From Rhizophagus irregularis (lineage: Eukaryota), in the NCBI RefSeq assembly GCF_026210795.1, contig NC_089433.1, positions 682,001 through 746,000 of the forward strand: 64,000 bases of DNA. Reading direction: 5' to 3'. Under the pieces are notes generated by a model. That model ran no database searches, was not told where the DNA came from, and saw only the letters and a list, made by a program, of their open reading frames with translations. A program made the translations under genes and the position numbers. Positions 1-42,851 of the stretch are shown here, piece by piece; position 1 is the stretch's first letter, and each line of letters opens with the position of its first letter.

Positions 1-15
1 AATCATCAATTCTTC

Positions 16-1099
16 TTAAACAAAAGATCTTTCAGGATGTTTGAGTATATAATCATCATTATTAATTAACCCAAAGGGGACTTCTTCCAACCAGTATAAG
101 ACCAGTTGATTTTTTTGCACCATAGATTGACGGATATGATAAATATGAGGTGACCAATTCAAATCACCAGTACGGTGTCTTCCACCCTTCAAATCACTAG
201 AATATAGTAAATATCGAACAAGAACATTACCAGAAAGCTTCTCTTCATCAAAGTCTATGATAGGGCCATCCTGAGGATAAGAAGGCTTAGCTAAGACCTC
301 TTCTTTCTCTATTGCATCAACAGGAGAAATACCAAGCTGGCATGTGATAGAATCATTAATATATTTGACAACAATAGGCAAATTTCTTACCCAAGTTCTA
401 GATATCTTATTCATGTGTAAAGTTAAAAGGTTAGAGGCATTCTGAGATCGAAACAGATTTTTAGTTAAGTCTCCATTAAATTTTTCAGTAATACCTATAG
501 TATTTTTAGATTTGGCCTTTTGAATTTTTACATTATACTCTCTCATTAATTTCTCACAATTGCCTCTAAACTCTGGACCCTTATCAGTTAAAAATGTTTC
601 TGGCCAAACAAAAGGATACTCAGGATCATTATAGATTTTCTCAAGAGCTCTAGCAATAGTCTTTAAAGTTAAGATTCCCTGCCTATCTTTAACACTATAT
701 GTACCAATAGGAATAGATACTTTATATTTTGAAGTCACATCCACCACATTAAGACAAAAAAGATAGGTAATCTGACCTACTTTATCATAAGGCATGTAGA
801 AAACATCTGCCTGATGAACTTTATTAGGAGTGGTAATAGAGCAAAAACTTGCTTGAGGAATATATTTAGGACGAGGCTTATATATCTGATATACAGCCTG
901 TCTTTCAAGCCAATCTTTCACTTCATCTAGAGTAAAATCATACCCATCTTTAAGAGATACTTCAAACAATTTTTTCGCATTTCTTTGGTAGCCAATAGGC
1001 TGGTAATAAATCTTCTGCAAAGCAATAAAAAAAATCAGGTTTTCGAGCTTCATCTGAATCTATCTGAATAATAGGAATCAATGGGGGTTAAGTAGGCAT
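16..1099 (-). CDS. Retroviral-type (rve) DDE integrase of Maverick/Polinton c-integrase type, probably degenerate
   Basis: ORF 16-1053 has HQADVFYM (D1), FLTDKGPEF (D2) and GITEKFN (E), plus the N-terminal 'VKDWLERQAVYQIYKP' typical of Polinton integrases. The probable original ATG at 1099-1097 (MPT*PPLIPIIQIDSDEARKPDFFIALQK) needs one stop and one indel. Confidence 0.85.
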
Positions 1100-2305
1100 A
1101 TATTGATTTACTAGACAGCAATTTAGAATTGCGAATAAAGTTGACTAAAGAGGAACCTATTACCATTAGAAATAAGGAAAAGATTCGCAAGCTCACAAAT
1201 GATCTAGAGTGATGTGAGCTATATATCAAATATCTTGAAAAAAATCTTATTTCACAAGAGGATGAGATAGATAAATTAAAAGTAGAATACTACTCCATCT
1301 TACATAATCTCAAAAAATGTCAGAATAATTTAAAGCTAAAGGAAGAGGCATTAGTCGCTCAAGATAACCGAATCATTCTGCTAGAAGGTACAGTAAAAAA
1401 GCTCAAAAGCCAAATTCTCAAGATATCACATTTTCAAAATAACAGTAATAAACTTTCTGAAGAAGACGAACAAGAAAATATGGCACTGCAAGATATTTTA
1501 AGGAATGTTGGTACAGCTCTAGATCAGGTTGAAAATTATATTGATGGAGTGGATACAACATTTAATCCAAAAAATACTCTAAATGGAATACGGATCTCAT
1601 TAACAACTGTTCGTGATCATATGCAAAGGTATGCTCAAGATGCTATTAACTTACAAGGTTTACTCTATATAGCTAATGGGCAGATCAATAATCTTATGAA
1701 TGACTTAACAAATACTAGGAATGATGTATTTCAAAGAACTCAGTTGTTAAATTTAACATATAATAATGAGGCAAATGAACATCATCGTTGGTATCTGACT
1801 TGGCTGAATTCAATCGGGTATGGGTATTTAATCGATATCAAAAATGGAAGGCTAGGGAATTAAATTCGCGACAAATTATCTTAAATTTACAAAACAATCT
1901 TCTAGCAAACAAGGCGAATATGGCAGATGTAAACCAACTTTTAGGCCTACAATTGGCCTCCCTTCCATTTTATGATGGACAAAAAGAGCCAGATTCATAT
2001 TATGCTAAACTTAGAACTATAAACGAATCAGCCTGATCTTTAGCAGTTGCAGGATTTAATGTGGCTGCCAGAACTAATGTCATGAAAGGAAAAATGACTG
2101 AAAGATTTCATCCTGTTCCAGCTAATGATCCATACACAGCAGGAAATCTAGCTATTAATACAGAACCTCTCTTTCTGGTATAGCTACAGGGAAGATATAG
2201 AGAGATAATGGTTGGAACTAATCGGGATGCACTAAGGGTTTTATGAATGAAAAATTTACTGTAATGGATACGGCAGATACTTATGAGAAAAGGGTTAAAC
2301 CATAT

Positions 2306-2549
2306 CACTGGTCAAAAACCAATATATCGGGTAACAGATATGTATCAGATATGTACCCGATATGTGTAGTATTAATGCTAAAAATTGGGTACCCGATATG
2401 TATATGATATGTAAATGATATGTAGACGATATATATATTTATACATATCTTACACATATCGGGTACCCGATTTTTAGCATTAATACTACACATATCGGGT
2501 ACATATCTGATACATATCTGCTACCTGATATATTGGGTTTTGACTAGTG
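2306..2549. mobile_element. CACTA/EnSpm-type non-autonomous element (MITE)
   Basis: Termini CACTGGTCAAAA...TTTTGACTAGTG with long inverted arms and a 3-bp TSD TAT (2303-2305 / 2550-2552). Removal restores the frame EKRVKPYVQG. Confidence 0.9.
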
Positions 2550-2848
2550 TATGTTCAAGGAATTTCTTATGCGGATGCTATAGAATATCTTTATGGATAT
2601 ATGCTTCAATATATAGAAATAAGACTTAGGCAAGCCAATCCGGCTAATTTGGATGTTTTCTTTACAGATTTGTGAAGAATTTGGTTGAAAAGTAGGGGGC
2701 AAATTGCAGAACAGCAACCTTTTCTCAGCTAGACTTTACCTATTATTCAATCACCAAAAGATGATTTTAAAATTCGGCTAGCAAGGGATTTGGCATATTC
2801 AGGAATAGTAACAGATGATGCAACATTAGAAAATTTTATCTATGAAGA

Positions 2849-3238
2849 TAGAGATCCTGGGCAAAACTGAAATATTTAGTCATTTGACTAAACCGAAATA
2901 GTTTAGACATTTAAAATTAAAAAACGAAATGCCGAAATTTAATATTTCATAGTATTTCCATAGATTTTTTATAGATTTCCATAGATTTTTAATTATAATA
3001 ATTACTTATAAAAAAAAAATAATAAATTTATATTAAAATATAATATTTTTTAAAGGAATTTATAAAACTATTTTATGTATAATATAATTTAATATATTTT
3101 TATAATAAAATTATAATTTTATATAAATAAAATTTAAACTTAAAAAATATTACTATATAGTTTAGTCAATGACGAAACTGAAACTAGTTGGTGACGAAAC
3201 CGAAATTTTGGCAAAAAGAGTTTAACTAGGTATTACTA
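2849..3238. mobile_element. hAT-like MITE
   Basis: TAG...CTA termini, subterminal CGAAA repeats and an 8-bp TSD TATGAAGA/TATAAAGA (1 mismatch). Removal restores ENFIYEELQKRL. Confidence 0.75.
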
Positions 3239-3611
3239 TATAAAGAACTTCAAAAGAGGTTAAGAGGCAAAACAGCTCATGTTAAAAAGAGTCCCTTTAC
3301 ATCTAGAAGTACCTATGCCATAAAGAAGATTGTTAGAAAGATAGTACCAAGCAAAGCGCCTATCGGCAAAGTATCAAGTAAACTTGTCTGACATTGCTCA
3401 GCATGCAGAAAGGCTGGTCATATAAAGGTTAATTGTCCTAAAGGTAAGCGGACTAAAAAAGTTAATTATGTATATCAAGATGAGGTAGAAGATCCTGAAG
3501 CCTCTGAAGAAGAATACATAGTGGAAAGCGAAGTTGATTCTGAAGAAGAGGAAATCGAAAATGATGATGTCAAATATGTTGAAGAAGATGATAGTGAATC
3601 TAGAAACTGTT

Positions 3612-4953
3612 ATGCATCAAAAAAAAGCGGTGCGAAGTGAAGTACCTATGAAAAAGAAGTCCTCTACTTCCAAATCTCATGCTGAAAGTGCTAAAACAAA
3701 GAGGGCATCAGGCAATATAACAATGGCCACAGAACAAATGAAAAAAATAGCCTTAAAATCTATGGTATCATCAGTAGTCCTACATTGTCCTAAAAAGATT
3801 CTTGTAGAAATTGCAAAATTTCTTAATATGATATATTCCAAATTAAAAGGCCATTACTTAAATACTGTTATGCCAAATGATACCATTAAAAGAAGGGAGT
3901 TAGCATGGGAGAATGTTAATAGCTATATTCAAGATATTTTATTACCACTATTACAGGCAGTAAATACTGAGCAAAAGCCTCTTTTACAAGTCCTAGATGA
4001 TAAAGAATCAATCCACAACTTAAATGAAGAGAACCTGGCAGATTCTACTAAAATAGCCATTAGCCATTCAAACACTTCGCAGACGCTTCGCAAGAAAATT
4101 AATATTACATACTCTAGCCAGTCAGAGAATCCCTCTGACTTAGTCTGATTAGACTATGCTATTAAGGTCTATGCTCAGCATCATTCAGCAGAAAAAAAAA
4201 AGTGACATGCAAAGCGTCTCACAGCTGATTCCTATATATTGGCCTAAACCATTAGAGATAAATTTTCTCCAAATAAAGAATGCTGACGATGTTGCAACTA
4301 TTTATTGTAAGATAGGAAGTTTAGAAATACCTTGTGCAATGATTGATACAGGATCAGATTCTTCTATATTTTCAGATAATATTGCAGAATTAGTTGAAGA
4401 GCTTTTGGGTATCAAAATTAATAGGATAAAGATCTACAGTCAACTCTTATTATAACGAACCCTAGGTTCCAGACCTCAACTTTACTATAGGACTATAGTG
4501 AAGATTTTAAGAGATTTGATTAGTTAATTCGTTATAGCAAGGGGAAATTTATTATAGTTGTCTAAAAAATTCACTATATCAAAGGTTCGCTATATCAAGG
4601 TTTGACTGTATACGCTTAATGGAGTTGTAAGCAAATCTCTATTCATTGGTACTATGGAGGATATTCCTATAACAATTGGTTCAGGAGAAAATACAACCAC
4701 TATTACAGATGAATTTTCTGTTGTGCCTGCGGAAAAGAATTAGAATGGAAATGCTAAATCTTTAGTAATTCTTGGGACACAATGGCAATATTGAGCTGGA
4801 TAGGAGCCTTTAATAAAAGGAGAATTTAAGGCTACATGTAACGGAAAGACTATCACAATCCCCCTATCAGTTCACAAATCCCAGCGTAATGTCTTCACTG
4901 TAGGAAAGGAGCCAGAAGAATGGTTTCCTGTAAAGCCAAAAAAAACTAGATGA
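3612..4953 (+). pseudogene. Post-Gag region ending in a retropepsin-like aspartic protease
   Basis: AMIDTGSDSSIFS (DTG at 4345-4353), flap-like 'IYTLNGVVSKS' after MITE removal and 'VILGTQW' at ~4765-4785. Internal stops are present and no RT motif follows. Confidence 0.8.
4437..4608. mobile_element. Tc1/mariner (pogo-like) MITE
   Basis: TIR CAGTCAA...TTGACTG with a TA TSD on both sides. Removal restores KIYTLNG. Confidence 0.88.
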
Positions 4954-5215: not shown

Positions 5216-5232
5216 TCATCTTAGACAGATTT

Positions 5233-6195
5233 TCAGAAAGTATATTTTTTTTGGATATTTAGATTACTCTTTGCATCTTCCCGTTTTCTAGTCCAATATT
5301 CAGCATCATGAAAAGAAATAAATGTATTTGGCTCAATTGTCCCATCACTTCCAGCACTAGGATTGGAGAATATTACTCGATCATTGAGAGCTATAATTTT
5401 TAGGTCTTTAGTAAAAATAATATCCTCCAAATCTTTACATACAGAATCGGCAGTCTTCTTTATATCCCATTTTTCATTCATAAGCTGGGAAATAGTAGAG
5501 GATAACTTGCCAATCTCCTTATCTTTTATAGCATTAGCTTTATCCAAAGCAGAGATATGAGATTTATATTGCTTCTCTAGCTCAGCTAAGTGTGAATTAT
5601 GCTGGGATTCCAATTAATATTTAAATGAATATGTCTTTTATTTCATATCTACCATGCAATTATTATATTCACTCTCTAGACGAGACTTAAGAGCATCATA
5701 TTCATCTTTTAGATATTTACATTCCTCAGCAACCTGGGCCTCAATAGTTTTCTTAATATTATTCTCCTGTTGCTATACATGAAGCTCACGTTCCTCTAAC
5801 TGTTTTTCAAACCCATCTAACCAGGATAATGTACTAGAACCATCAGAGAAGGTATTTGCTTCGATCTTAATCTTCTGGCAATTTTTTTTATTAAAGTATC
5901 TATCAACTTCTCTAGTAAGCAATTCCTCAATATCCGAATGAATACTTTTAGCCTGTTCCTCAAATAAGGGATTATTTTTGCGGGTTGTAAGATGCAACCA
6001 TGCATCTTTTTTCATGAATGGGGGTAATTGGTCAAACAAATTCTTATAGTGTTCGTTGAAATTTGGTTGGCTGGACATATATTCGATTATAGGTAAGTGA
6101 TATAATCTTGGAAAATTCCTGGAAAAAAATATTTCTGGAAGTTCAGAAATTCCATATTTTCCTAGAAGTTTGGGTATTCTATTTGTTTCCAGCAA
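5233..6195 (-). pseudogene. Coiled-coil hypothetical protein (split)
   Basis: Two same-strand ORFs (5773-6195, 5233-5613) are joined by stop-interrupted coding-like sequence rich in E/K/L heptads. Confidence 0.45.
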
Positions 6196-6399
6196 AACTT
6201 TCCACCTAAAAATTAGCCAAAAAATTAGCCAGGCCTAGATTCTGGGAAAAAATACTAAGATTATTCTCAGAAAATTCCTTCTAAACAATTGTAATTTCTG
6301 TTCCATCATCTAATTTTAATACTGGTCGATTAAGATAGTTTATAGATGGTAGTAAATTATTTTGTTTTGCATACAGAGACGAGATAAATATTTCGCTTG

Positions 6400-7055
6400 T
6401 ATTACTTCTGCAATTCGATGATTGATAAGAAGTTGGTGAAACCATCTCTTGGTTACCAGAGGTAATAGAAATACAAGCTGGCTCGAAATTTGAAGCACTT
6501 AGTTGCTATAGTTGCAGTATTAGCCTTGAAGCAAAAGTAATTCTAATGATTCTTCATCAAATCTTCAGACTCAACCTCATAGGCCCATCTCCCCAGCCAC
6601 TATAATATTCCTTTCTAGGCTCTACTTTGGTAATCTTTACCAATTTCTGGCATTTAAAGCAGATAGCCATCTGACTTTTATGGACACTAGGTCTACGATA
6701 TTCAAAGGGGTACTATATAAATCACCATTAACATAGTATGTTGTGGATTTTACTTGCCCAAAGGAAGCGAAGAGGCAATACACATGATATAAACTATATC
6801 CTTGCTTAGAAAGTAGTTCTTGCAGAGAACCTCTTACACGATTAGCCATTGCTGAGGAGTTTCATGAGGTCTAATAATAGATAAATAATCATATTGTTTT
6901 TCTATTTCAACCACTTTTTCATATCGATAGTTATCAGTTTGAGGTCGATAGTTAAAAACATGTTCCATATCATATCCAGGGCGGAGATTGATAGGTTTAG
7001 GTACAATTTTATTATAAACCCTATCTATAATGATTTTAACCATGTCACCAGGCAT
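6400..7055 (-). pseudogene. Fragmented hypothetical gene
   Basis: Overlapping ORF pieces 6834-7055 and 6637-6849 are joined by a frameshift; no recognisable domain. Confidence 0.35.
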
Positions 7056-7502
7056 AGCTATGCTAGTATAACTAATTATTAGTAAATTAGAGATTTATAG
7101 CAATTTCAGAGTTTTATAGTATTTTTAATGAATTCTGACAATTCTTTAGCAACTTATACTAGATAATATCACCATTCAAATTTATACGGATTTAATTAGC
7201 GGTTAATTGGTTTGTAGCCTATCTGTGAGACTACATGCTAGTAAATCCAAAATTCATTTTTTTTTATTCGATTACGAGCATATCGAGATTTATATAGGGT
7301 CATATCTAGCCGGCTATGCTAATTTTATATTTACATGCATATGCATAGCGCCTTCGGCTAAATTGGTTTGTACTGTATATCGTATTACATGAAATCTCCC
7401 TTAGTTCCCCGATAGTTCTAGGAATGTTCCAGGAGCGATCCCTCTGGGATCAGCTGGCGAGTTTCTATATATCACGAGATGATCGGCCAATCAGATTTCG
7501 GA

Positions 7503-7940
7503 TTTTTTCTGATGGTAGAGTCTGGACACGGTGTCCGGGCTCGTTATACACATTTAAAAAATAAAGCCCGATATGGGCCGGATATGCAAATGCTTTATTA
7601 TATGTTTGAGAATACATGTGAAACGAAATTCTTTTTTTTTCTGATGGTAGAGTCTGGACACGGTGTCCAGGCTTAACTTGCGCAGAAAAAAGGATTAATC
7701 ATATGGCGCAGTAGTCAGCAAATTAGCCATGGTTTTTTATTCGAAATCTTATTGGAAGTAGCAAATTATTTTCCATGATGTTCGGGCAAAAAGTACTTTA
7801 TATTATATTTAGCAGTTCATTGATGCATGTCAAACACTAAAATAAAACCCCCAAAATGCTTTATTAATACATGTTGAAATACATGTGCAAGAAATACTAT
7901 TTTTTCTGATGGTAGAGTCTGGACACCGTGTCCGGGCTCG
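7503..7940. repeat. Three copies of a ~40-bp motif with a palindromic core
   Basis: TTTTTTCTGATGGTAGAGTCTGGACAC(G/C)GTGTCC(G/A)GGCT at ~7503, ~7632 and ~7900. Copies 2 and 3 also share the upstream AAATGCTTTATTA...ATACATGTG. Confidence 0.9.
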
Positions 7941-8598
7941 TCAATATTGCGCAGAAAAAATGAAATAAATCATGTGGTGTAGTAAAGTATGTCAAGTGAT
8001 AATTTATCGCAGTACTCTGTGAAAAAATCATGTGACACTGTGAAAAAAATTCACGCACTTTTTCTTGGCAAAAATGATCTGTATAGCTAAAAAAAAGAAA
8101 CGTGTAACTGACATAACTCATGGCGCAGTATTTTTTTAATCGTCACCAGGGCGCAGTAAAATGTGGCACAATATTACGTGCTTTTAAAACTTCAGCAATT
8201 ACATAATTGGTATCATCTACTCATTTTACCCGTGCTATTTTTTCTTTGCCTGTAGTATTGAAATTCTAAACATCTTTTGGGCATAATTAGAACATTTTGT
8301 GTAACCTTTCTCGAAGCCATAAAAATCATATGACAAAAATTTTGCTGATCTTTGGGTCAGGAAATCCTATCTTTTGAGCATATCTATTGGTAACAGCGAT
8401 TACATCACAATAAAGTATACACGAGTTAAAAATAGAATGTAATATTATGGACAGGTTTCAAAGTTATGCATTAAGTGATAAGTTTTTTTTGCATTTTCTA
8501 ATTTGGGCATAATTTAGACAAATCAGATTGCGTATGGACTAATTTTCAACAAGTCATTTCATTTCACTTCTGAAGCAATGCAATCTGTATTAAGTATG

Positions 8599-9940
8599 TC
8601 AAGGTGATAGGTTATCTAAATATGCACTTAGTGGACCTTCATGTCGTTGATTCAAGAAAAAAAGTCCTCCTCCACTCCAGTGGACATAAGTAAATTGGTC
8701 CAGTACATCATTCCCGATGAGGGAAGAATCCACCTAGTCACCGGCCTTTCATTCCCACACCCAAAGCGTATTGGTCTGGACCCATCTGCTCCAATTATTA
8801 TCATCCCCAATAGATACTTGAAATGGGTCTGTAGCTAAAAACAAGTTAGCAGGTACTCCATATCCAGGCGCAACTACCGCTTGTCTTTCCCATCCTGTTC
8901 CTAGGTATGAACGGACTTCGTAGGGTAGTATTGTCTCTGGAGCACCTGTGTCAATAACTGTCTTGTAAAGTTTATTCCGATTTTTTGTATCATTAAATCG
9001 ATAAGCAAGAGTAATAAAATTTGTATTTTCGTCTCCAACTCTTTTGACTCGAACTTGAATCTTTATTAATATTATTCTTTATTAACAAAAAACTAAATAG
9101 CAAAGCAAATTATATAGATCAAAAAAAAAGTGTGAGTTTAAATGTATCAAACCATATATTCTCCCCCACCAGCAGAACGTTGGGAAAGTACTGCTCTCGC
9201 TGCGGGAATTTTAGGATTAAGAAATTCTCCACGAAGTAATGAATCTACTGGGAGATAAAGGGCACCAGGCATTTCACGATCAAGATCTGACCGTTGCTTA
9301 TTTGACTTCTTTTCTCCATATTCAACCACACTCTGCTTGTACACCAGCACCCAATCCTGTTTATGTTCATCAAACATTCCATTATCAAGACTATTATAAA
9401 AATAAATGCAATTTAGCGCGTATTCTTGATCATCTTCGGTTACATCGTTATCAGTGAAAACCCAGAAGACTTGATCTCTGGTGTTTTGGGGCATAGAAGT
9501 AGGCCATCTGAAATCATTTCCCATACGATCTATAAAGATGTTAGTTAATTAGACAATAGAATAATATAATATACAAAATTTTGGTCGTACCTAAAAATCT
9601 CTGTGCCTCATCAGTATCTTTTTCATACGCACGAAGGGAATCCACAGTTTTGGGTGGAGTTTCAAGAATGAAGGGAGTCTAATTCCTCGATGATTTGAGC
9701 TGAAGTATCTTTAGCTGTGGCCACAATATTTTGTTTCGTATTAGTTGAAGTACCTTCAGCATTTCCTTCGACATTAACAGCTTCGACATTAACAGTCTCG
9801 CTTGCTGGGGTAATAATAGTAGACTCACCTTTAGCTGTAATTAGCAGAATATTCAGTACAATATGATTGAAAGTTCTACATTAAACCTTGCAAAAAACCG
9901 AACCTTTCTTTCTAGAAAATATTCTTTTGAATTTTTTCAT
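8599..9940 (-). pseudogene. Spliced gene: DUF5678-like domain fused to a retropepsin-like aspartic protease
   Basis: Four exons with GT-AG introns (~9903-9835, ~9590-9530, ~9151-9061). Exon 3 has 'FDEHKQDWVLVYKQSVVEYG'; exon 4 has 'TVIDTGAPETILP' and 'SSLIGNDVLDQF'. There are two in-frame stops (TGA, TAG) and one frameshift. Confidence 0.75.
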
Positions 9941-10399
9941 GGCTGTAACGAGTACAAATCACCTCATGGCAAGCTTTCTAATAAATACTTTATGATTGAT
10001 TTTTATTTTTAATTTTTAATATCTATGTGAATACTTTATGATTGATTGATGTAAGTTATCAGAATATTTAACAATAAAAGATCATCACATGATCATTTTG
10101 ACTTTCTAATACTGCGCCAAATTTCGCACGTGCCAACAATCGATTTTCCTGAATAACATATCTGATATATATAATTTTTTTGCTTTACTTGTACAAGGTA
10201 GATAAAAAGATTCATTATCTAGGGGCCTTTCCTATTTATATGACTTTAATGTTTTAAGGATATATTTTGAAAGCTTGAGTATATGGGGGAAATTTCAAGA
10301 ATAAATTATATGATGCATCAATATGTAAATATATTGTACTTAATTTTGTTCATACTATCTTTTACTGCCTTGACTATTGATCTGCCATTTGGCATACAA

Positions 10400-11010
10400 C
10401 AATGCCATTATGTGGCTATGATTGCGAACTTAAGTTTTTTGCTTGAAGTGTTGCAGGTAAGACAATATTCCCACTTATCTTGAGATAGCAACTTCGCTAA
10501 TTCAGGATTATAAGGGAACTGATTCCCATTTTTGCAGTACCATGAGCCATGTAATCCATAATTCCCATGTTTTCCATTACAAATAGGGCATGGTGAGCTC
10601 CACGGCTGAAGTGATGCAAAATTATAATTATCAATTCCCCTAAAACTATTTCAGAATTTCAAGTATGGAAAGTGCTCTAAGATGGATTTGATAATTAATT
10701 CTGGATTGGGTCTGGCTTTGAAAATAATAAGTTTGAAATCAGAGGCTTGGCCAGAGGCGCTAAAGCAAGGTTTTTCTGATATACTTATCACAGCTTCTGT
10801 TAATTGCTATGGTTCATTTCCATTTTCTTTTTTATATCTTTTATATAATTTGAAACGAATCTTATCTGTCAAAATACTTGGTAACCCAGTTAATTTGGCA
10901 TACTAATCCAGATAATCAGCAGTTAGTATTTTAACAAACTCAGTCATTTTCCTTTTTATATGATTGCAGACAATTTAAATCTCTTTTTTTTCATATAGAC
11001 CTATTCATTT
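10400..11010 (-). pseudogene. Hypothetical protein with a CPICNGKH zinc-binding module
   Basis: Stop-interrupted frame reading 'LEHFPYLKF*NSFRGIDNYNF...PCPICNGKH...YCLTC'. Confidence 0.45.
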
Positions 11011-19893: not shown

Positions 19894-20198
19894 AGTGTTA
19901 CGTTTTTATAGTAATAATAGGCTCAGATAAAAAAATAGTGTTACGTTCTGGAGTGAGATAAAAATTTATTCTGTTCAGAAAAGAAAATATTAGGCGTTAA
20001 TATAGGTTTTTATGTAGTACAGGCATTGCATCATTATACATGATCCGTTTCTCATATACGTTCGTTAAAATAATAATACTTTATTTATGAAATAAAAAAT
20101 ATTGGCAGAAGGGCCCTAAAGGGACCAAACTGGCTTACAATACATAAAAATTGTGACTGTATCGCTATTACATGATAATGAAATATAGATAAAAAAAT

Positions 20199-20649
20199 CT
20201 AATTATCTTTGCTTAGTACTTCCAGCACCCTTTCAGCAGAAGGGTATACGATAACATTAATTCCCTTTTCACCACCAAAGATACATTGGGGTTGTATAGG
20301 AAAATGAGTAAAAATTGTGTCTTGCAATTCCATTCTTATTGCACTTTACTCAACTTTTCGCTGATTTATTTAAGCTGTTGATTATGACACTATCAGCTAT
20401 AAATGTGACCCTATATAAAGCCAAATTGGTCGAATCTATATCTTGAAATCGATCTAGACAATAAGTTCTGATTGCCTTCACGAGAGAAGAGACTTTATTA
20501 TTGTTAGCGTTAGATATCGTTACTTCAAAAATATCATTTACTCCCTCATCAGAAATGAGACAGTTGAGAGTAATATCCCCACCAGCGAGAAACTTGTCAA
20601 GCTTGTCAGGAGTCTTAGTCTTATCAGATTCCTTGGTTTTATTAGACAT
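20199..20649 (-). pseudogene. Stand-alone Crinkler N-terminal (ubiquitin-like) domain
   Basis: 'ITLNCLI...DIFEVTI...VSSLVKAI...FQDIDSTNLALYRV', then after a frameshift 'IFTHFP...GINVIV', matching the CRN header pattern. Confidence 0.65.
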
Positions 20650-20699
20650 CTTGCTTTCCTAAATACAAGGCCCATGGTGAGAAAAAACTTGCTTGGTCT

Positions 20700-22560
20700 C
20701 AGAAGGACCCTCGCATACATATATAATTAAGGGCATATGCTTACCTTATTTTACGTTAGCTATGCTATTGAAACTATTTTCTCTGGAAAAGTTATTTGCA
20801 GAAAGTTGGCTGAACTTTTACATATTTCTACATACTTTATATCTTGCTGGGAAAAGTTAGGGAGGTATGAGGTGTAATTAGCATTGTCGTATGATGCCAA
20901 GAGCTCTTTGAAAGCACATGCAAATGGAATTCTCTTACCTTTTTACATGTAAATCTAATGGAGAGACACATAGTTAGTTTTACGCCTGGTGATCTTGAAA
21001 TTGTGAGTCCCTTAGCCTTTCATAACATATGCTTTTGCCGTCAGTATTTACTTTTAGAGTAGATCCTGTGTTGCAACTAGACCTCCCTTCACATTTTCTC
21101 ACATTTATTTGGGAAAAAAATAAGAATAGGAAGTTTATATAATTTCTTTTCGCTTGATATGTGAGAAATTCTCCTGTCACACAAACCTGCTCATGTGATT
21201 ATTTATTTTATCGCACAATTTGGCCGAAGGCACAGTGCATAGTTCAGCAATTCTTCCGAGATGATAATCATTTCTCTGGACTAGCATTAATCGATCTGCT
21301 TGGTAAATTGGAATCAGAAATATTAAACATTTTACTAACATCGCTTTTAAACAATTTTACAAGGTTTTCTAGTCCCTCCAAATTTTTCTCAAATACTTTG
21401 GTTAGCTCCTCCAGATCGCTAGGTTAATTATTGGATAAATCTTTTTTACTTGGTCCCTCTAAGATCCTTTTGGTTTGGCGCTCGCTTTCCATTCTTACCT
21501 TTGGTACTGCAGAAGTTAGTCTAATTATTGGGAAGAAAAAATAAAATTGTGCAATATTTAGTTAATCACTACTCTGGACTGGTTCAGGTTCTCAGATATT
21601 TGCACAGTTCGGGATAATCAAATACGCTAACAATCCTGTCTTCCTTTATATTCTTGACAGTGATAAAGCCAGTTGCCTTATCATATATGTACTCATATTT
21701 GGCTGGATTGCATAATGGCAAATACTGCGTGGGATTATTAGTAAACTTACCTGCGGTCTTGCGCCTATTATTTCTTGATTTCTTATCCATTATTAGATAA
21801 TTTGGCTGATTCAATTATTTCTACAAGCTTGGGTTGGATTCCTTTTAGGTTTCACCTCCTTATTACCAGATTTTTTCTTCCCACACTTTACTTTGCGAAT
21901 CCTCTTCAGCTGAACTTGACTCAGATGAATCTGTTAGTTCTTTGCCAGCCTCTAGGCCAGTTTGTTCTTCTATATAATTTCCTATCTAGTCTACAGATCT
22001 TTCAAGCTTTTTGAAACGAGAATGATGATCACGTAATTTTTTCTTCAGCATTATTATATGCATAACAAGAGAATTAATCACTTCTGCATTCTGCCCATCT
22101 GCTTCAAATACCTTTTTTAATTTCTTCATTTGTTCACATGGTATGCTATTATTTGATGAATGCTTGGTTCTGAAGACATCATTTCGTCTAACTACCATCT
22201 TTTCTATAACTAAATATTTATTGTCACAGAAAAAAAATAAAAGCTGAATTTATCAATCTGCAGGAGAGGACCTATCTGAAAAAATAACTGATTAATTATC
22301 ACTGGATTGTATTTCTTTTCCTAAATGAATATAAGAAATAGAATTGTACATTTCATCTATATCACTTCTTAATATTTTTTTGAAATCTTAGGGTGCCATA
22401 GCATTATATAGATAATAGATTTCTCGGGCAATTGTTTTAAGATTTTGATGTATTTTAGTTACATCACGTTCCAGCGCTATAATAGACTCTTTGATATTCA
22501 CAATAGTGTATATCTTTTCTTTTTCCGAATCTATGTAATATTTTTTAGAAGGCATTTTTA
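20700..22560 (-). pseudogene. Cluster of short, decayed, tightly packed hypothetical ORFs
   Basis: Minus-strand ORF pieces 21986-22198, 21584-21814 and 20980-21180 with short AT-rich spacers; no domain recognised. Confidence 0.3.
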
Positions 22561-24833
22561 TATATCTGAAAAAATAAACTGAATATTTATCATTCCAGAA
22601 AAAAAAATCTAATAATTATGTAAACTCTGTGACTTGACTAATCCAATTCGCTCACAATTCTAGCTTATTGCTGGTAGCTGGATATGTGAGACATACATTC
22701 ATTTTGATATTTCTCTGGAAGCTTGACCCTTATAGCTCTTTTTTCAGCCTCTTCATGGGATATACTATCTTTGACCATATTTTTATAAGCTCGAATGCAC
22801 CAATGATTATATGGTAAAGTGGTAATCCCATCAGATAAGATTCAGCACTTAGTATCTATGGGGCAAGGGCCTTCTTCTCAGATTCGACCAGAGATAATAT
22901 GTGATCCTTTGATCAGATGCCTACATCCTTGGCATAAAATACTTTCTTATCAAAGAGACAGTCCCAATATACTAATGACATAGGATCTGCCTCAGATTGC
23001 ATAGCCAAGTCCCTAGTCTCTCGTTCCGATAATAATGACTTATCTATCGAATTATCTAGCAAGGAGCCTTCTAGGGTTGGCATATATGAATCTGTAGCCA
23101 TCTCGCTCATACTCTTTTTGCTAACCCCTTATGCTTAGACTTCGTGGTCTTATCTATCAAGACATAGTAGTAAGATTTAGCTCGAATATGATAGGATTCT
23201 GTGATTACATTACCAGGAGTTTCATCCTTAAATTTTCTAACTGTTTGATCTCCATTAAGATTAAAGAGATCTGGTCGTTCAGCCATATCTTTATAGATAT
23301 CTTCTGTTTCAGTTTCGAAGATGTAGAAGTCTGTATCCATATATCTAAGCTTGGCCTTGTCCCCATATTTTTCCTTTATATATCTATATCAGAATTCATA
23401 CATGTGAAGCTTGCTAAGACCCAATACAGATGTTCCAACTTCCAACTATGATAGACTTGTTAAGGGTTACGCTGGCCTTTTCCATATGTGCTCCTATAAA
23501 TGTATTTCCAAGTTGCCTAGCATATTTGAATGAGGGCTTGCAGACCTTTTTCAAAAAAGCTTTTTTATCTCGCTCATTATTTTTCTTCATAATCTTGACA
23601 TCCTGGTACTTGCGAACATTCTCCATAGTCTTGCTATATACTGATATATTCATAAGTTTGAAAAAGTCACTCAGGAATGTATTTCCAGCTTTTTTAGCCT
23701 TATTACGTTTTTCAGTATTAAAAGTTATATATGGTTCAAGCCAGTTAGTCTGGTTGAAGGAGAGTATCTCTGAAACTTCATTCACAACCATACCTAATTT
23801 TACATAATATTGGAGCTATTGGTAATGGATGACATAGTTCTTTTGTGGTCCAAGATGGAGGACTAATTTTTCTGTGGCAGAGAAGCATCCACTATCTAAT
23901 TGTTCTACAAGTTTAGCATTATATGGACATAACTAATCTTTTTCTACAGCGACATTCTTCACGGCTGGAGGTAAGTCTTTTAAATATTCATGAGTCTTTA
24001 GAGAGAAATGAGTATTAATATTTAAGAAATACCCTCGTTTAGCATCAAATCGTGTATTAAGAATCTTTTCAAGATATTTCTTCTGCATAGCTGGATTTTT
24101 TAGTAAATATTTCCGACTAGCTTCCCATTGATAATTTCCGATAGGCAAATATTGGCCCATAGAATGTCCATAAAGATTTGTTACATCTACATATGAGATC
24201 CAGGATGTGGGTTTGGATGGGTCATAGGCTTATCCCATCTTGGGATTATTAGCCTTAAAATATCGTTGATAGGCCATAGATATACCATCACATTTAGCTT
24301 TTTCGGTAAAATCATGCATGGCCATATCTGTGAAAAGCTCTATCCTAACTCCTGTCATCTTAAACATTCCATCCCAGGATAGTGATGAGGCAGAAACATA
24401 GTAACTGGGATTAAGTTCATAATATTCTATAGACATTTTTCAAAACTCTGTCCAGACATCTGTTAGACTAAGTACGTCAATTTTAAGATAGAGATCATGG
24501 TACTCACCTAGATTCTTACAACCAAAAGTTTTCCATGCTTTCTGGGCATGGTGGTAGTCTTCTTGCGAGATCTTTCCTTTTAGGGTTGTAGTAAATTCAT
24601 GAATTGGTGGGAGCTTAGTCTTCAAGAATCTATCCTGAGGATCGATATAATCATAACAATATATTCCCTTGCGATATCTTAATGCTAATTGCTCCTCTGT
24701 ATAACCTAATTTTTTGAAATATTGGCTTATTATCAGATGGTTATCACCCAAATTTTTCGTAAGACTGGCCAAGCTACTATTCATGAATTACTGGCTATCA
24801 ATATACTTGAGCTGGCCTACCTTCATAGACTTA

Positions 24834-25522
24834 CACTCCCGCGCAATAAGTTTAGGACCACCTTATTTTTGTTTATATAAATAATGTTTTATTCTTATTT
24901 ATATAAGTTTTTTTTTAAAAAAAATTCTTTACATTGTAATTTCTTGAATAAATATAAAAAATTATCATATTGATCTTTATAAATCATATAATACAAGGTT
25001 TTTTTCTCAATGACAAATTTTTAACTTTTCAACCAGAGTGATTACAACAAAAATAAGTACAAAATTTAAATAGTTAGGTAAACATAAGATTATATTTCAA
25101 ATTTCGTAAAGATCGAATCAGTAGTTATTGAGAAATTAACAATTAAGAATCGACAATTTATATATTTGACCTAATAAATAAATGATTTTCATATATAAAT
25201 TGTCGATCTTTAATTATTAATTTCTCGATAACTACTGACTCAATTTTCATGAAATTTGGAATATAATTTTATTGTTAGCTAAACTATTAGAATTTTGTAT
25301 TCATTTTACTGTAACTGCTTTAGTTAAAGAGTTAAAATTTTACTATTAAAAAAAAACTTTATTTTACATGATTTATAAATGCAAATATGGTAATTTTTTA
25401 TGTTTATTCAAAAAATTATAACACAAATTTTTTTTTTAAAAAAAATAAATTATATAAATAAGAATAAAACTTTATTAATATAAACAAAAATAAGGTGGTC
25501 CTAAACTTATTGCGCGGGAGTG
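24834..25522. mobile_element. Tc1-like non-autonomous fold-back element
   Basis: Perfect outer TIR CACTCCCGCGCAATAAGTTTAGGACCACCTTATTTTTGTTTATAT, with arms continuing imperfectly inward and a TA TSD. Removal restores KRYKSMKVGQLKYIDS. Confidence 0.95.
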
Positions 25523-27414
25523 TATACCGCTTAAATGTTTTAGCTATAACCCTGATATGTTTTGCATTAGCTGAGCGTCCAACAGATTCACAGACCAAGT
25601 GAGAGTCATAGCCCCAGAAGTTATGGAAGATAACTGGGATTGGGGTCTTCCAATCCTGTATCTGGAATTTGAGATTGCAATCCCTATGAGCTGATTCACG
25701 AAACTTGCCTGTGATATGGCAGTGATCCCAAACCTTATTAGCCTTAGCTTTTTTGCTGGAAATTGCCTTGGTTGTTTTATCAATAGTTGATTGGATACCA
25801 TTATATTCCGCTGATTTTTTATCAAATTTTTCTAGCTTTTCTTTAAGATAAGTTATTTTGGATTCTAAGCGCTTGATTTCATCTATATCTATATCGAATT
25901 TACCTTTGCAAATCCAACAGCTAATAGGCATCGGCAAATTTTTTCTTGTCTTTCTCAATTACTTTTCACTCATATTTAACAGTTAAGACTTCATTAATGT
26001 GAACTAGCTCTTGATCAATCCTTTAGACGAATTCTTATGTGGCATTTTCTCCCCAATATAAGAACGGACTCCATACATCTCCAGTATCAATCCAGTGGAC
26101 TAAGTAGCAGAAACTATTAGTCTTCTGTTCAGTAAGTTTTCGCATGCTTCCACCATATTTTCATCACATTTCTTATTATTAGCCTTGAAGTCCACTATAA
26201 TAACACAAGAAGCATTGATCATCTGGCCATAGTTCTTGAAGTCCTCAAAATCATTTACCCCTTTCACGAGCATTGTAACTCTCTGTAGGGCATTTTCATG
26301 TATTCCTGGACACTATTCTATATGTTGGTCTAAAGATTATTCAGAAGGAAAACTTTGGAAGTATCCATCACATAGATGTTTCTTTTCTTTATGCGCACTA
26401 TCCCTATATATTAATCTACTGGGATTCTTGATCCAGAGAAAGTGGTTCTTTTGTCTGTATTTATCTTTATCTTCAGATTTGATAATATCTGTAAGAGCTA
26501 ATAACCGAATTTTATACTTTCTTTTAAAGTTTTTACTAGCTATCACGAGTTTTGGAGTAGCTGTTTTTTCATTCCACCCCAAACATTGATGGAGATATTT
26601 GGATTCATCTCCTCTATTTTATTAAATATGCGTGAGCAGATTGGAGTAGACATTGGGGTACTATCTAGCTTGACTACATCTAAGTATGGCTTGAGTTTCT
26701 TTGCTCAGAATATTTGTTTAAGATGTTTTGTATCAGGCCGATCTTAATGAGTAAAATACAATCCCAATGCATCTTGAAGATATTTTTCTGAGGGTTTTTT
26801 TGTTTCTAGATCAATAAGATCTTTATTATCTGGATTGATAGTGGACTTTATATTGGCGAGCCTTTTGGAAGTAGAGATGAATGAACCTCCTGTACCATGA
26901 CATAAAGTATATGTCTCAATACTTATAGAATTAATACGTTTAAGAATAAAACCTGATTTATGTATCAAATAGTCTGAAATCTTTTTATCAATATGACTAA
27001 TAGATATGGCTAAATGTTCATCAATATCCTTTTCAGAAAGAAGTACGTCTATTTTTCCTCTATGATATCTATCAAGATATTTAGCTTCATAAATTGCTTT
27101 ATCTGCAGAATTACCTTTTCCATTATATTTGTATTTTACATATATAGCATTTATGACCAATACTGTTTTTATTTGATTTTTTCTGCAAAGCTCTTCTTGT
27201 AAAACACCTGTAATTGTCTTATTTGATACTCCTATAAGTTGAGGTATATAAGGGACATCTGCGTATTTTGTTTGTTTGGCCTGCTGTTTATTGAATGCAT
27301 ATTTGGGATTATTGCTAGATGGTACTTTTCTCACCCATTTAGTCATTGAAGAGCGATTTCTATGTGGTCTTTCTAGATCTTTCCCAACTGGACATTCTTC
27401 AAAGTGTATATCCT

Positions 27415-28828
27415 CCCTATGAAAAAAGTCTGTGTGATTTTTGTTGAAAAATCATTCAATTAAATTCACTACAATTTCTGTATATTTGACCATACAATAA
27501 TTGTGCTAAAAATTGCAATAAATCACACAATTATTGCATGGTAATTCATTCAATAATTATCCTATTTTTGACCTGAATTTATACAATTATTGTGTGATTT
27601 TTGAGCCAAATTTTAGGCCATATTTTAGGAATTATAGGTTAAATTTTACAGTAATAACAGGCAATTTATAAAGTAAAATTATGAATTTTTATTGACTTAA
27701 AATATAAAAAATATACACAATATTTCATAAATAAAATACTAAATTTGATATAATCATAAATATAAAAATTTGTAAGAAAATAAAATAAAATAAAGTATGT
27801 TAGCTTAGTAACATGAAAGTAAATTAGTAGTATCAAAGAAGAAAGTAAATTATTAGTGTAAGTAAATTATTAGTATTAAATAAAAAAGTATGAAGTTAGT
27901 GAAGAAAGCAAATTAGTAATGTTAAAAAGTAAATTATTAGTGTTAGTAATAAAAAAGTATGAAGTTAGTGAAGAAAGCAAATTAGTAATGTTAAAAAGTA
28001 AATTATTAGTGTTAGTAATAAAAAAAAAGTATGAAGTTAGTGAAGAAAGCAAGTTAGTAACATTAAAATGTAAAAAGTTAGGAAAATAAAAAGATAAAGA
28101 ACACAAGTTTTCTTACCTGACATTTTAAAAGAAAGCTGAAGAAAAGTTAAAAGGTTAAAAAACATAAACAAAAACATTTCGCGTCATCATATTTATTTTG
28201 ACGATCAGATCACGTGATCAACATATATAATTTTAAGAGTTGATTTTTACCGCTTAATTCTGGCCAAATTATAATTCCAGTCAGAACTAATTGTGTAACT
28301 TAATAAAAAGTTTTGACTTTTTTTAGTTACAAGGTGATATAAAAATTTCACCAATGGGTCCGGAAGATGCCCGTTTATAAGCAAATATGCAGTTGAATTT
28401 TGTGTAACCTTACTGCATAAATCACTTTACTTAGAAAAATCTATTTGTAATGGTTAAAAGTGGTCTATTTGACCCTAAAAGTGGTCAAATGTAACCATAC
28501 AGGTAAGATGGAAAGTAGTATAGTAGGATTACCCAAAAATTGCTTTCCGTATCCTAAATTTAAGTCTATTTTCAAGTTGTACAATAATCACAATTTTTAT
28601 TGTACAAAAATTGAATGTTTTCTGTATCCTAAATTTAAGTTGTATAAAGATCACACAAAAATTGAACATTTTCTATATCCTAAATTTAAGTTGTACAAAA
28701 ATTGCATACTTTTAATATGCTTTGAAAAACTTCATAGCTATTTTTATCCAAAAATCTGCAATAATTGTACAATTTCCACACAGACTTGAACAAATATTGT
28801 ACAAAAATTCGATGATTTTTTTTCATAG
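27415..28828. mobile_element. CMC/EnSpm-like non-autonomous element
   Basis: CCCTATGAAAAAA...TTTTTTCATAG (right end lacks the terminal GG), 3-bp TSD CCT and internal tandem repeats. Removal restores the polB frame IKVKDIHFEE...SSMTKW. Confidence 0.82.
27840..28065. repeat. ~60-bp tandem repeat, about 3 copies
   Basis: AAAAAAGTATGAAGTTAGTGAAGAAAGCAAATTAGTAATGTTAAAAAGTAAATTATTAGTGTTAGTAAT repeated. Confidence 0.85.
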
Positions 28829-29160
28829 CCTTCACTTTGATAAAAGCCTAAGGAGCTGACTACCTCTTTCTTATACCCTCTTCTTCAAGGAAATTTTTAC
28901 TGTTTGGAATGGTCCAGCTTTTGGATCACCCTCTTGTTTTTCGTCCTGCATTATGGGCTGTAATTCAAAAGCTTCATCATTTGCCTGTATTAGATCATTA
29001 TGTAGAAATTGACAATCTTTTAAGGTTAGTAGTAAATTGCGTTCTTCACCAGTTACCTCTACTCATTTTTGGCATAATCTTGCACCCCATGTTCTCAAAT
29101 GTTCCCAGACTTTCTTGCATGTCTATCGATTCATTTACCCCCTTGATCTTTAATGGAAGC

Positions 29161-29616
29161 TAAGGATGGCCCCGAAATTGATTTGGAAAAAATCTGAAAT
29201 CCAAAATTCCGAATCTGAAATCCGAAATTTTTCCAAAATTAATTCATAATTTCGGCCGAATTCATAATTCCGGCCGAAATTAATTTATAATTTCAGACGA
29301 ATTCGTAATTCTAGCCGAAAATCGTAATTCCGGTCAAAACGGATACGTTGATCATTTCTATATTTGGCGATAGCCGTTCTACAAAAATCGATTTTAGTAG
29401 GAACGATATGGAATATTGTGTAACATTGATTTCCATTTTAGGAAATTTCATAATTCCTGCCGGAATTAAGTGCATAATTCCGGCCAAATTTATATATTTA
29501 ATTTCAGCATTTCGGCTGGAATTTCGGATTTCGGAATTTCAGATTTGGCTGGAATTACGGCTACGGTTTTGGAATTTCGGCAAATCCAAAATATTTCGGT
29601 TTTGGGGCCATCTTTA
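29161..29616. mobile_element. hAT (Ac-like) MITE
   Basis: TIR TAAGGATGGCCCC / GGGGCCATCTTTA, perfect 8-bp TSD ATGGAAGC and CCGAAAT-type subterminal repeats. Confidence 0.92.
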
Positions 29617-30159
29617 ATGGAAGCTAGCCTCGTGCTCGGGGAGCTTGGACACAGCTTTGGTTGTTCCATTCGACGATCCCTTCCTTGTACGAACTAATGG
29701 AGTCTGAGCTGGCGATCGTCTCAGTACGTTTTAGAAGTTGGAGATTTGGATGAACAGATTTCGGATACCTTAGGGATGCGTACTTTCTTCTTTCGGTTAA
29801 TATTCTTCAGTGGCTAAACTACATTGGTTTTTATTACTTTGATAATGCTGGCGAAGTTTAGCTGGTTTGGTGAATTTATAATCATGCAATAGCATGTAGT
29901 ATCTTTTTTATCTGATCTAGGCATGCTATCAATAAGTTTCACCTGTTATATATTGTGTAAACTTTTTCACAATTTAAAATATTTAATTCTATAACCCCTC
30001 TTTTGTTTAATTACTTTTTTCTATTTTTGAATTTATGGCTTCTTCAATCATAGATTTTGGAACAACTTTTCTACTGAAGGTTTATGACTGAAGGAGGGAT
30101 CCGGCATGTGAATATGCTTCAGGATAAGGCCCAGATGTTCAATCTGAATACTTCTGAGA

Positions 30160-30656
30160 TGAGACTTAGAGGTGAGACTTGGAGGTAAGACTTAAATATG
30201 CCCGTCCTAGAGGTGAGAGTTAGAGGTGAGACTTATTTTTTTTGCCTAAAGGTTAGACTTAAAGGTGAGACTTAGAGGTGAGACTTAGAGGTGAACATAA
30301 CTTGTGTACATGCTCCACTTCGCTCTGCAGACTGCAAACATTATTTGGAAATATCCTGGATTTCGAGAGGTTAGACTTAGAGGTTAGATTTTGCTAGGTG
30401 AAATTTTTTTTTACATTTGAGGTAAGACTTAGAGGTGAGACTTAATGGTGAGACTTAATGGTGAGACTTAAATATATCTGCCCCCTAGAGGTGGGACTTA
30501 GAGGTGATACTTAAATATCAAAAAAAATAATGGTATGCTAGAATTGAGAAATCGAATAATTCTAAATCAAGTTTGGGAGCGCTATTCGAATTCCGATAAG
30601 TCCATCTCTTTGAGGTGAGACTTATTGGAAATTTGTTTACAGTAATGAATCACTCT
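30160..30656. repeat. 13-bp tandem repeats; candidate Maverick terminal region
   Basis: Many copies of (TTA)GAGGTGAGAC just upstream of polB. A possible end ...CACTCT at 30656 reads AGAGTG on the minus strand. Confidence 0.6.
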
Positions 30657-42692: not shown

Positions 42693-42851
42693 CATGGGTT
42701 CAAGCCATGCGAAATATTACGCCACATTACACCAATTCGGCAATACCCCCGGTGTAATACTTGTGTAACACGATCGTAATACTCTTCGATGTAATATATT
42801 TCACCATTTTCACCATTATGCCGAATTATCTGAAATAATTATTCCTCCATG
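42693..42851. mobile_element. TA-flanked MITE, copy 1
   Basis: TA-CATGG...CCATG-TA; the body is similar to 47101-47280 (GAAATATTAC...CATTACACCAATTCGGCA...GGTGTAATAC...ATGCCGAATTATCTGAA). Confidence 0.65.

What the first reader, a model, noticed from the sequence alone, without database searches (positions are those of the whole stretch)
1..30656. Maverick-like DNA element with a retroelement-type Gag-protease instead of the usual virion module
Seen: a Polinton-type integrase and protein-primed PolB in one decayed gene-dense span. A Gag-like ORF (capsid-like motifs, CCHC knuckle) is followed by a DTG retropepsin. I see no RT/RNase H, no LTR or PBS, and no DJR capsid, A32-like ATPase or adenain protease. 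Known: canonical Mavericks encode pPolB, INT, ATPase, adenain and DJR capsids, while Gag-PR normally travels with RT. Inference: this may be a chimeric self-synthesising element in which a linear pPolB-replicated DNA genome is packaged in a Gag/retropepsin particle. Caveat: the left end is outside the window, and ~18 kb separates the two modules.
Basis: partly seen in the sequence, partly recalled or inferred. Interest (0 to 1): 0.88.

Follow-up and report, generated by a model that had tools for sequence, protein, structure and literature searches.

The report
Fungal Polinton with retroviral-type capsid gene
This is a broken copy of a self-copying DNA element of root-symbiotic fungi that carries, next to its DNA polymerase and integrase, a conserved gene pair predicted to make a retrovirus-type capsid and protease but no reverse transcriptase, so it likely moves its DNA in retrovirus-like shells, which is untested.

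Summary
Observation confirmed; the linkage is real. The window holds a decayed Glomeromycotina Polinton (Maverick): integrase, Gag-like gene, retropepsin and protein-primed PolB. The 18-kb gap is specific to this copy. Metagenome contig L018 has integrase, Gag, protease and pPolB within 8.4 kb, in the same order and without RT; L010 and an R. irregularis A5 contig also link them. The integrase lies head-to-head with Gag in 15 of 16 informative loci. A relative's capsid domain folds confidently (pLDDT 88.7), and its top 32 structural matches are retroviral or retrotransposon capsids. The protease is in the -1 frame behind an A-run slippery site in 10 of 11 loci. Capsid, protease and integrase are under purifying selection. 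So Gag-protease is a core module, not a nested retrotransposon. No jelly-roll capsid or ATPase was found, but the left arm is unseen. Capsid-less Glomus Polintons are known, and a 2021 figure legend probably labels this mix; I found no analysis of it. Packaging of the element's DNA in Gag shells is my best mechanism (about 0.55) and is untested.

The parts
16..1059 (-). Polinton-type rve integrase, a stand-alone gene (D-D-E residues present); its last codons run off the window
   Evidence: Pfam rve; many stand-alone relatives of 350-392 aa among the best hits, the named ones from Rhizophagus and Entrophospora
1081..3640 (+). Gag-like gene: coiled-coil N-terminus, two-lobed capsid domain (about 1920-2690), CCHC knuckle (3395-3436), acidic tail; broken by stops, frameshifts, a deletion and two insertions
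   Evidence: tblastn of full-length relatives; 55 homologs; predicted fold of relative L001
3619..3690 (+). Gag/protease junction: A-run slippery site and a possible downstream stem; frame disturbed in this copy
   Evidence: -1 frame in 10 of 11 loci; stem pairs invariant but no covariation
3620..4950 (+). Helical spacer plus retropepsin-type protease (DTG at 4345-4353), ending without RT; broken
   Evidence: Pfam on relatives
2306..2549 (.). Nested MITE in Gag (108-nt inverted arms, TAT duplication)
2850..3238 (.). Nested insertion in Gag (edges approximate)
   Evidence: gap against five loci
4434..4609 (.). Nested MITE in the protease gene
   Evidence: gap against L005 and L007; short inverted ends
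5222..7761 (-). Native accessory region: coiled-coil ORF 5236-6234, Cys-containing ORF 6284-7094, then non-coding DNA
   Evidence: colinear with L007 (88%) and L010 (81%)
7762..21250 (.). Expanded middle that compact relatives lack: cargo and/or nested elements, including a second DTG protease-like gene, Crinkler-like pieces and a Cys-rich ORF whose homolog sits left of the integrase in L008
   Evidence: L010 covers the same interval in about 1.1 kb; summed contig depth is high at 17.5-21.3 kb
13321..17186 (+). Nested MULE transposon with 8-bp target duplication
   Evidence: Pfam MULE E 7e-18; duplication at 13313 and 17187
19300..19764 (.). Nested AT-rich MITE
   Evidence: contigs of two runs skip 19299-19765
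21249..22615 (-). Native small ORFs downstream of pPolB
   Evidence: match the tails of fused gene models P0207 and P0202 from other copies
22668..29160 (-). Protein-primed DNA polymerase B with Endonuclease VII-like insert; broken. 22668-27412 aligned; the N-terminal piece at 28829-29160 is inferred
   Evidence: an X13 contig joins 27411 to 28829; N-terminal likeness to P0060 judged by eye
24832..25523 (.). Nested MITE in pPolB (TA duplication)
27412..28828 (.). Nested high-copy insertion in the pPolB 5' part
   Evidence: skipped by X13 record 11
29165..29611 (.). Nested MITE; a related fragment lies inside the MULE at 16714-16935
30149..30527 (.). Array of 13-bp repeats, possibly subterminal; the true right end is not fixed and related copies continue to about 31000

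Best explanation
This is a dead copy of a Glomeromycotina Polinton whose core is integrase, protein-primed polymerase and a Gag-protease gene with a predicted retroviral capsid fold, and active copies likely use that Gag, in place of a jelly-roll capsid, to build retrotransposon-like shells around their own linear DNA. Shown: the four genes are linked in a fixed order, the capsid domain and protease are under purifying selection, the protease lies in the -1 frame behind a slippery run, and no RT follows it. Predicted: two-lobed CA fold. Inferred: Gag is made in excess and Gag-protease by -1 ribosomal frameshifting; the protease matures the shell; the knuckle and basic stretch bind the excised, pPolB-copied DNA so that the shell assembles around it and needs no pumping ATPase; the particle carries DNA (perhaps with integrase) between the many nuclei of the coenocytic hypha; the integrase inserts it.
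For: Linkage: L018 holds integrase(-), Gag(+), protease(+), one ORF(-) and pPolB(-) in 8,385 nt; L010 runs from Gag to the pPolB 3' end; RhiirA5_452577 (Gag) and RhiirA5_452572 (pPolB piece) both lie on a 28,377-nt contig; RclHR1_02150019 (Gag) and _02150020 (integrase) are neighbours. Integrase is head-to-head with Gag in 15 of 16 loci with DNA upstream of Gag, out of 37 fetched (L001/L002 and L003/L021 look like near-duplicates). The Gag-linked polymerases of the window and L018 fall in distant branches of one 27-row clade holding all named Glomeromycotina pPolBs (SH-aLRT 100, quick tree, 4 rows dropped). Fold: pLDDT 88.7, nine helices; ranks 1-32 of 48,161 chains are retroviral or retrotransposon-derived capsids, best PEG10 CTD Z 10.8, rmsd 2.1, 79 aligned; RSV CA Z 7.6, rmsd 6.7, 156 aligned over residues 2-184; first unrelated row Z 5.1. 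ESM Atlas neighbours carry Retrotrans_gag or Ty3_capsid (0.90-0.91). dN/dS: CA 0.17-0.53 (31 of 36 pairs computable), protease 0.08-0.22 (10 of 10), integrase 0.03-0.37 (35 of 36). -1 frame in 10 of 11 loci where the junction was found. No RT in 1.8-3.7 kb after the protease in L007, L010 and L018, nor in 35 long CA homologs chosen from 150 listed. Published Glomus Polintons of 11-12 kb lack MCP, penton and protease.
Against: No particle, expression or packaging data exist here. The left arm and both termini were not seen, so a divergent jelly-roll gene or ATPase there is not excluded; P_Gi1.2 is listed ATPase-positive, and A32-like ATPases are reported from Glomus and Rhizophagus assemblies. 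Foldseek gave no match at E <= 0.001 (best MLV CA E 0.022; viral library best E 0.019), and Z under about 13 can be generic for helical models; the N-lobe matches only within full-length alignments at rmsd 5-9. The integrase is not fused to Gag, so it has no built-in route into a particle. Several loci have a Met just after the slippery run, so an internal start for the protease is possible, though L004, L008 and L018 lack that Met. The proposed frameshift stem shows no compensatory change and is not evident in L018. Only three independent records link Gag to pPolB besides the window.
Confidence: 0.55

Rival explanations
1. Gag-protease is a core gene and assembles, but not as a DNA-carrying virion: it forms a compartment or nucleic-acid chaperone for replication and integration intermediates, or packages the element's mRNAs, as Arc and PEG10 shells do (recalled).
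For: All linkage, fold, selection and frameshift results fit equally well; the best structural matches include domesticated Gags PEG10, dArc and PNMA2; the integrase is a separate gene.
Against: It leaves unexplained why the Polinton virion genes are missing from the region where Gag sits; keeping a frameshift-coupled protease suggests particle maturation (established retroelement biology, recalled).
Confidence: 0.22
2. Gag-protease is long-kept cargo that acts on LTR retrotransposons (a restriction factor like Ty1 p22 or Drt2, or a way to borrow their particles or RT), while the element moves as a capsid-less transposon.
For: A Ty1 Gag-derived restriction factor is among the top matches (Drt2, Z 8.9); these elements do carry variable cargo such as an F-box gene in L010 and a Crinkler-like ORF in L018.
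Against: Cargo varies between copies while Gag-protease keeps its place and its shared start with the integrase (12 of 13 loci); known restriction factors are truncated capsids without protease (recalled); no LTRs for RT-based copying.
Confidence: 0.1
3. A conventional or very divergent jelly-roll module lies in the unseen left arm, and Gag is an additional structural or accessory protein.
For: Left arm unseen (at most about 680 nt left of the integrase in L005 and L008); ATPase in P_Gi1.2; fungal A32-like ATPases.
Against: The genes seen left of the integrase are a 126-aa all-helical protein and a small Cys-rich ORF; the 11,954-bp Polinton-1_GI is scored negative for all four virion genes, and a 2021 search found no MCP in G. 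intraradices. Whether Polinton-1_GI is this family was not tested by sequence.
Confidence: 0.1
4. The Gag-protease is the remnant of an LTR retrotransposon that happened to insert into this Polinton copy.
For: The copy is full of nested elements and the modules lie 17.7 kb apart.
Against: Same arrangement in copies whose integrases are only about 50% identical; compact linkage in L018; protease ends at its own stop with no RT; no LTRs.
Confidence: 0.03

Closest known systems
Polinton-1_GI / P_Gi1.1 and P_Gi1.2 of Glomus (Rhizophagus) intraradices (PMC4028283 Table S1, read whole; PMC7805220 passage)
   Same: Same host group; listed without MCP, penton or adenain protease; 11-12 kb fits the compact layout of L018.
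   Different: Neither source mentions Gag or a retropepsin in what I read; P_Gi1.2 has an ATPase, which I did not find here.
Unnamed PolB element in Fig. 5 of Starrett et al. 2021 (PMC8502044; section 3.4 read, figure not visible, supplement cut)
   Same: [quoted passage not shown] 3 names Rhizophagus PolB. Likely this element type.
   Different: A label only: no discussion, fold, frameshift or selection analysis in the text I read; the host of that map could not be seen.
Canonical Polintons/Mavericks (Polintoviricetes)
   Same: pPolB with Endonuclease VII-like insert, about 40% identical to animal Polinton enzymes over the query; stand-alone rve integrase.
   Different: No jelly-roll MCP, penton, A32 ATPase or adenain found in the seen part; Gag-retropepsin instead.
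Ty3/gypsy-type LTR retrotransposons and retroviruses (Ortervirales); domesticated Gags PEG10, Arc, PNMA
   Same: CA fold, CCHC knuckle, aspartic protease behind a -1 slippery site.
   Different: No RT, RNase H or LTRs; integrase on the opposite strand and of Polinton type; own DNA polymerase.
Caulimoviridae (plant pararetroviruses)
   Same: Precedent for dsDNA inside a Gag-derived shell (recalled); their coat proteins appear among the weak viral matches (E 0.07-0.9).
   Different: They copy through RNA with RT and have no integrase or pPolB (recalled).

Membership tests
Polinton/Maverick | Protein-primed DNA polymerase B | tested here: met
   PF03175; exonuclease and polymerase motifs in full-length relatives; broken in this copy
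Polinton/Maverick | Stand-alone retroviral-like (rve) integrase | tested here: met
Polinton/Maverick | Long terminal inverted repeats | not testable with these tools
   Left end outside the window, no genome held; right end not fixed; no locus reaches an end
Polinton/Maverick | About 6-bp target-site duplication | not testable with these tools
   needs both ends
Polinton/Maverick (viral form) | Double jelly-roll major capsid and penton | tested here: inconclusive
   No Pfam hit in the window ORFs scanned; no room between integrase and pPolB in L018; left neighbour predicted all-helical; left arm unseen
Polinton/Maverick (viral form) | A32-like packaging ATPase | tested here: inconclusive
   No credible Walker A in window 1-31500 or seven loci or in the homolog proteins scanned; left arm unseen; P_Gi1.2 has one
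Polinton/Maverick (viral form) | Adenain-type cysteine protease | tested here: inconclusive
   No Pfam hit; left arm unseen
LTR retrotransposon / Ortervirales | Gag with two-lobed CA fold | tested here: met
   Predicted model of relative L001; ranks 1-32 all CA-type
LTR retrotransposon / Ortervirales | CCHC nucleocapsid knuckle | tested here: met
   3395-3436; zf-CCHC in relatives
LTR retrotransposon / Ortervirales | Retropepsin expressed as a Gag extension | tested here: met
   Pfam; -1 frame in 10 of 11 loci; frameshifting itself not shown
LTR retrotransposon / Ortervirales | Reverse transcriptase and RNase H after the protease | tested here: not met
   Protease ends at a stop; L010 and L018 lead on to pPolB without RT; 0 of 35 long homologs
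LTR retrotransposon / Ortervirales | Integrase within Pol on the Gag strand | tested here: not met
   Opposite strand, separate gene, in all 15 loci with an integrase hit
LTR retrotransposon / Ortervirales | Long terminal direct repeats | tested here: not met
   None around Gag-protease in window 1-33000
LTR retrotransposon / Ortervirales | tRNA primer-binding site | not tested
   no LTR to anchor the search
Caulimoviridae | RT-based replication, no integrase | tested here: not met
   pPolB and integrase present, RT absent

The most novel reading that the evidence does not exclude
Mycorrhizal Polintons are a hybrid kind of virus-like element: a protein-primed linear DNA replicon from the jelly-roll virus realm that swapped its virion module for a retrotransposon Gag-protease, and packages DNA in a retroviral-type shell with no RNA step, spreading between nuclei and perhaps between fused hyphae.
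Probability: 0.5. Interest if true: 0.9.

Novelty: new variant of a known kind. Interest (0 to 1): 0.74.

Why it matters
Papers of 2014 and 2021 left the Glomus Polintons as the case with no detectable capsid. A conserved, selected Gag-protease offers a testable answer: the capsid was replaced rather than lost. If true, a retroviral-type shell would carry a DNA genome made without reverse transcription, a capsid exchange between two unrelated virus realms. Mavericks are reported as uniquely expanded in Glomerales and among the youngest elements of R. irregularis, so the mechanism could bear on how DNA moves among the nuclei of these fungi. This copy is a poor specimen; intact copies are the ones to study.

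Tried and rejected
No genome held for the window. IMG/VR scans with Gag, integrase and pPolB, and a GTDB scan with a Gag alignment, found no relatives. Pfam does not recognise the main CA type; only divergent L035 hits Retrotrans_gag weakly (E 0.002). A sequence-profile search of the PDB found nothing. The small gene left of the integrase gave a moderate all-helical model with no specific match (best Z 7.7, unrelated bundles). A six-frame read-through Pfam scan of the whole span did not complete; only 8600-9562 and 29850-31102 were rescanned, without hits, so faint decayed genes elsewhere could be missed. A frameshift pseudoknot was not supported by covariation. No RNA holder listed. Summed contig depths were not used as copy numbers. 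The right terminus at 30656 was rejected. No complex prediction was run. Literature searches for an analysis of the Gag module; only the 2021 legend turned up. The 2006 and 2015 Polinton papers were not held under the ids tried and Pritham 2007 was not seen, so an earlier mention there is possible; the unseen part of the 2021 supplement may also name the element.
Full report
Observation. The window comes from a Glomeromycotina genome, judged by homologs. Stop-to-stop ORFs and Pfam show an rve integrase at 19-1059(-), a knuckle at 3395-3436, an Endonuclease VII-like piece in the pPolB region and a nested MULE. Full-length relatives map onto the window as Gag 1081-3637(+), protease to about 4935(+) and pPolB 22668-27412(-). 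Every one of these except most of the integrase is broken by stops, frameshifts or insertions. About nine insertions can be placed: 2306-2549, 2850-3238, 4434-4609, the MULE 13321-17186 with an 8-bp duplication, a MITE fragment inside it, 19300-19764, 24832-25523, 27412-28828 and 29165-29611.

Is the linkage real? One metagenome scan gave 37 Gag loci from 351 pattern matches. In 15 of the 16 loci with DNA upstream of Gag, a Polinton-type integrase lies head-to-head with it; the exception, L036, has only about 100 nt there. Some loci are near-duplicates, but the integrases range down to about 50% identity. L018 carries a small ORF, integrase, Gag, protease, one more ORF, a Crinkler-like ORF and pPolB in 8,385 nt, in the window's order and orientation. 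L010 is colinear with the window to 7761 and reaches the pPolB 3' end about 1.1 kb later, against 14.9 kb in the window. In R. irregularis A5, Gag and a pPolB piece are five locus tags apart on a 28,377-nt contig. The long gap is therefore a feature of this copy. In a quick tree of 43 polymerases (4 rows dropped), all named Glomeromycotina enzymes fall in one 27-row clade, with the window's near Rhizophagus and L018's sister to an Entrophospora enzyme. The pairing thus spans the clade. CA homologs are named from Rhizophagus, Glomus, Diversispora, Gigaspora, Cetraspora and Entrophospora.

Is it a Gag? A 187-residue model of the L001 domain, from 15 sequences, has mean pLDDT 88.7 and nine helices. 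Against 48,161 chains, ranks 1-32 are retroviral, retrotransposon or domesticated capsids: PEG10 CTD Z 10.8 (rmsd 2.1, 79 aligned), Copia 9.6, dArc2 9.1, Ty1-derived Drt2 8.9, and full-length RSV CA 7.6 (rmsd 6.7, 156 aligned). The first unrelated row is at Z 5.1. Foldseek ranks MLV, HIV and Copia capsids first but not significantly (best E 0.022), and the N-lobe match is looser. ESM Atlas neighbours carry Retrotrans_gag and Ty3_capsid. Pairwise dN/dS is 0.17-0.53 for CA (31 of 36 pairs), 0.08-0.22 for the protease (10 of 10) and 0.03-0.37 for the integrase (35 of 36).

Frameshift and absence of RT. Where the script found the Gag end (11 loci), the protease lies in the -1 frame behind a run of As in 10; L016 and the window, both decayed, are offset the other way. 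In L018 the protease frame opens at that run with no nearby Met; several others have a Met soon after, so an internal start is not excluded. A 6-7 bp stem six nucleotides past the site is invariant in nine sequences but shows no compensatory change, so it is only a candidate. The protease ends at its own stop. The 1.8-3.7 kb after it in L007, L010 and L018 holds no RT-sized frame, and none of 35 long CA homologs, chosen from the 150 listed, carries RT, RNase H or integrase domains.

Virion genes. No jelly-roll, ATPase or adenain family was found in the window ORFs scanned or the locus ORFs scanned, and no credible Walker A motif. The gene left of the integrase models as all-helical with no specific match. 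The rest of the left arm and both termini were out of reach, so absence is shown only for the seen part.

Mechanism. Shown: gene content, order, selection, frame relation, no RT. Predicted: CA fold. Inferred: frameshifting sets the Gag to protease ratio; Gag assembles around the excised, pPolB-copied DNA through its knuckle and basic stretch; the protease matures the shell; the particle reaches another nucleus of the coenocytic hypha, where the integrase inserts the DNA. Assembly around the nucleic acid would explain why no pumping ATPase is needed. I put this at 0.55; a non-virion role of assembled Gag at 0.22; defence or borrowing from LTR elements at 0.10; a hidden jelly-roll module at 0.10; chance nesting at 0.03.

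Prior knowledge. PMC4028283 (passages and Table S1 whole) lists Polinton-1_GI/P_Gi1.1 (11,954 bp) without MCP, penton, ATPase or protease, and P_Gi1.2 with ATPase only. PMC7805220 (one passage) says no MCP had yet been found in G. intraradices. PMC8502044 (passages, section 3.4, first part and a search of a cut supplement) has a Fig. 5 legend entry for retroviral Gag and retropepsin on a PolB element and names Rhizophagus in Fig. 3; I could not see the figure. Its preprint has the same legend (passages). A 2026 preprint (passages) reports Polinton-related A32-like ATPases from Glomus and Rhizophagus. PMC11952901 and PMC8647823 (passages) report Maverick expansion in Glomerales; the first has no occurrence of 'gag' or 'capsid'. 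PMC4409740, PMC3671162 and PMC5751038 (term searches or passages) added nothing on Gag. Eight searches found no analysis of the module. Six unreviewed reports of this scan on other pieces of the same genome reach a similar reading; they are leads, not support.

Verdict. A real, conserved chimera in a known element family: Polinton replicon and integrase with a retroelement Gag-protease, probably labelled once in a figure and, as far as I could search, not worked out. It fails membership of LTR retroelements (no RT, LTR or Pol integrase) and meets the two gene criteria of Polintons; its ends are untested. New variant of a known kind; interest 0.74; 0.9 if DNA packaging is shown.

Noticed in passing
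window 1075-1085; L001, L002, L003, L005, L008, L009, L011, L021, L022, L031, L032, L034: The integrase and Gag start codons overlap on a shared palindromic CATG in 12 of 13 loci examined, leaving no space for promoters; each transcript would have to start inside the other gene. The window has lost the exact motif.
   Followed up: partly
window 8600-9548 (-): A second aspartic-protease-like gene (DTG motif, apparent intron) in the expanded middle; no Pfam hit.
   Followed up: partly
window 17168-17482 (-); L005:1-200; L008:27-185: A small Cys-rich ORF cut by the MULE has a homolog left of the integrase in L008 and apparently in L005, so accessory genes seem to change place between copies.
   Followed up: partly
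window 18317-20658 (-); L018:5881-6141; L010:4793-5527: Crinkler N-terminal and SAM-like pieces in the window's middle; a Crinkler-like ubiquitin-fold ORF (judged by eye) in L018 and an F-box gene in L010 between protease and pPolB, suggesting these elements move host-type genes.
   Followed up: no
window 13945-14113: Telomere-like TTAGGG tract inside the 5' part of the MULE.
   Followed up: no
window 30149-31000: 13-bp repeat array, then sequence shared with other copies to about 31000; may be a long subterminal region or a separate repeat.
   Followed up: partly
L035:741-2912: A relative with the same integrase and coiled-coil start but a different, more Ty3-like capsid domain (Retrotrans_gag E 0.002), hinting at capsid swaps within the family.
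   Followed up: no
window 37175-45906 and 48839-50299: Three tandem paralogs with weak KH-domain hits and an F-box gene outside the finding.
   Followed up: no
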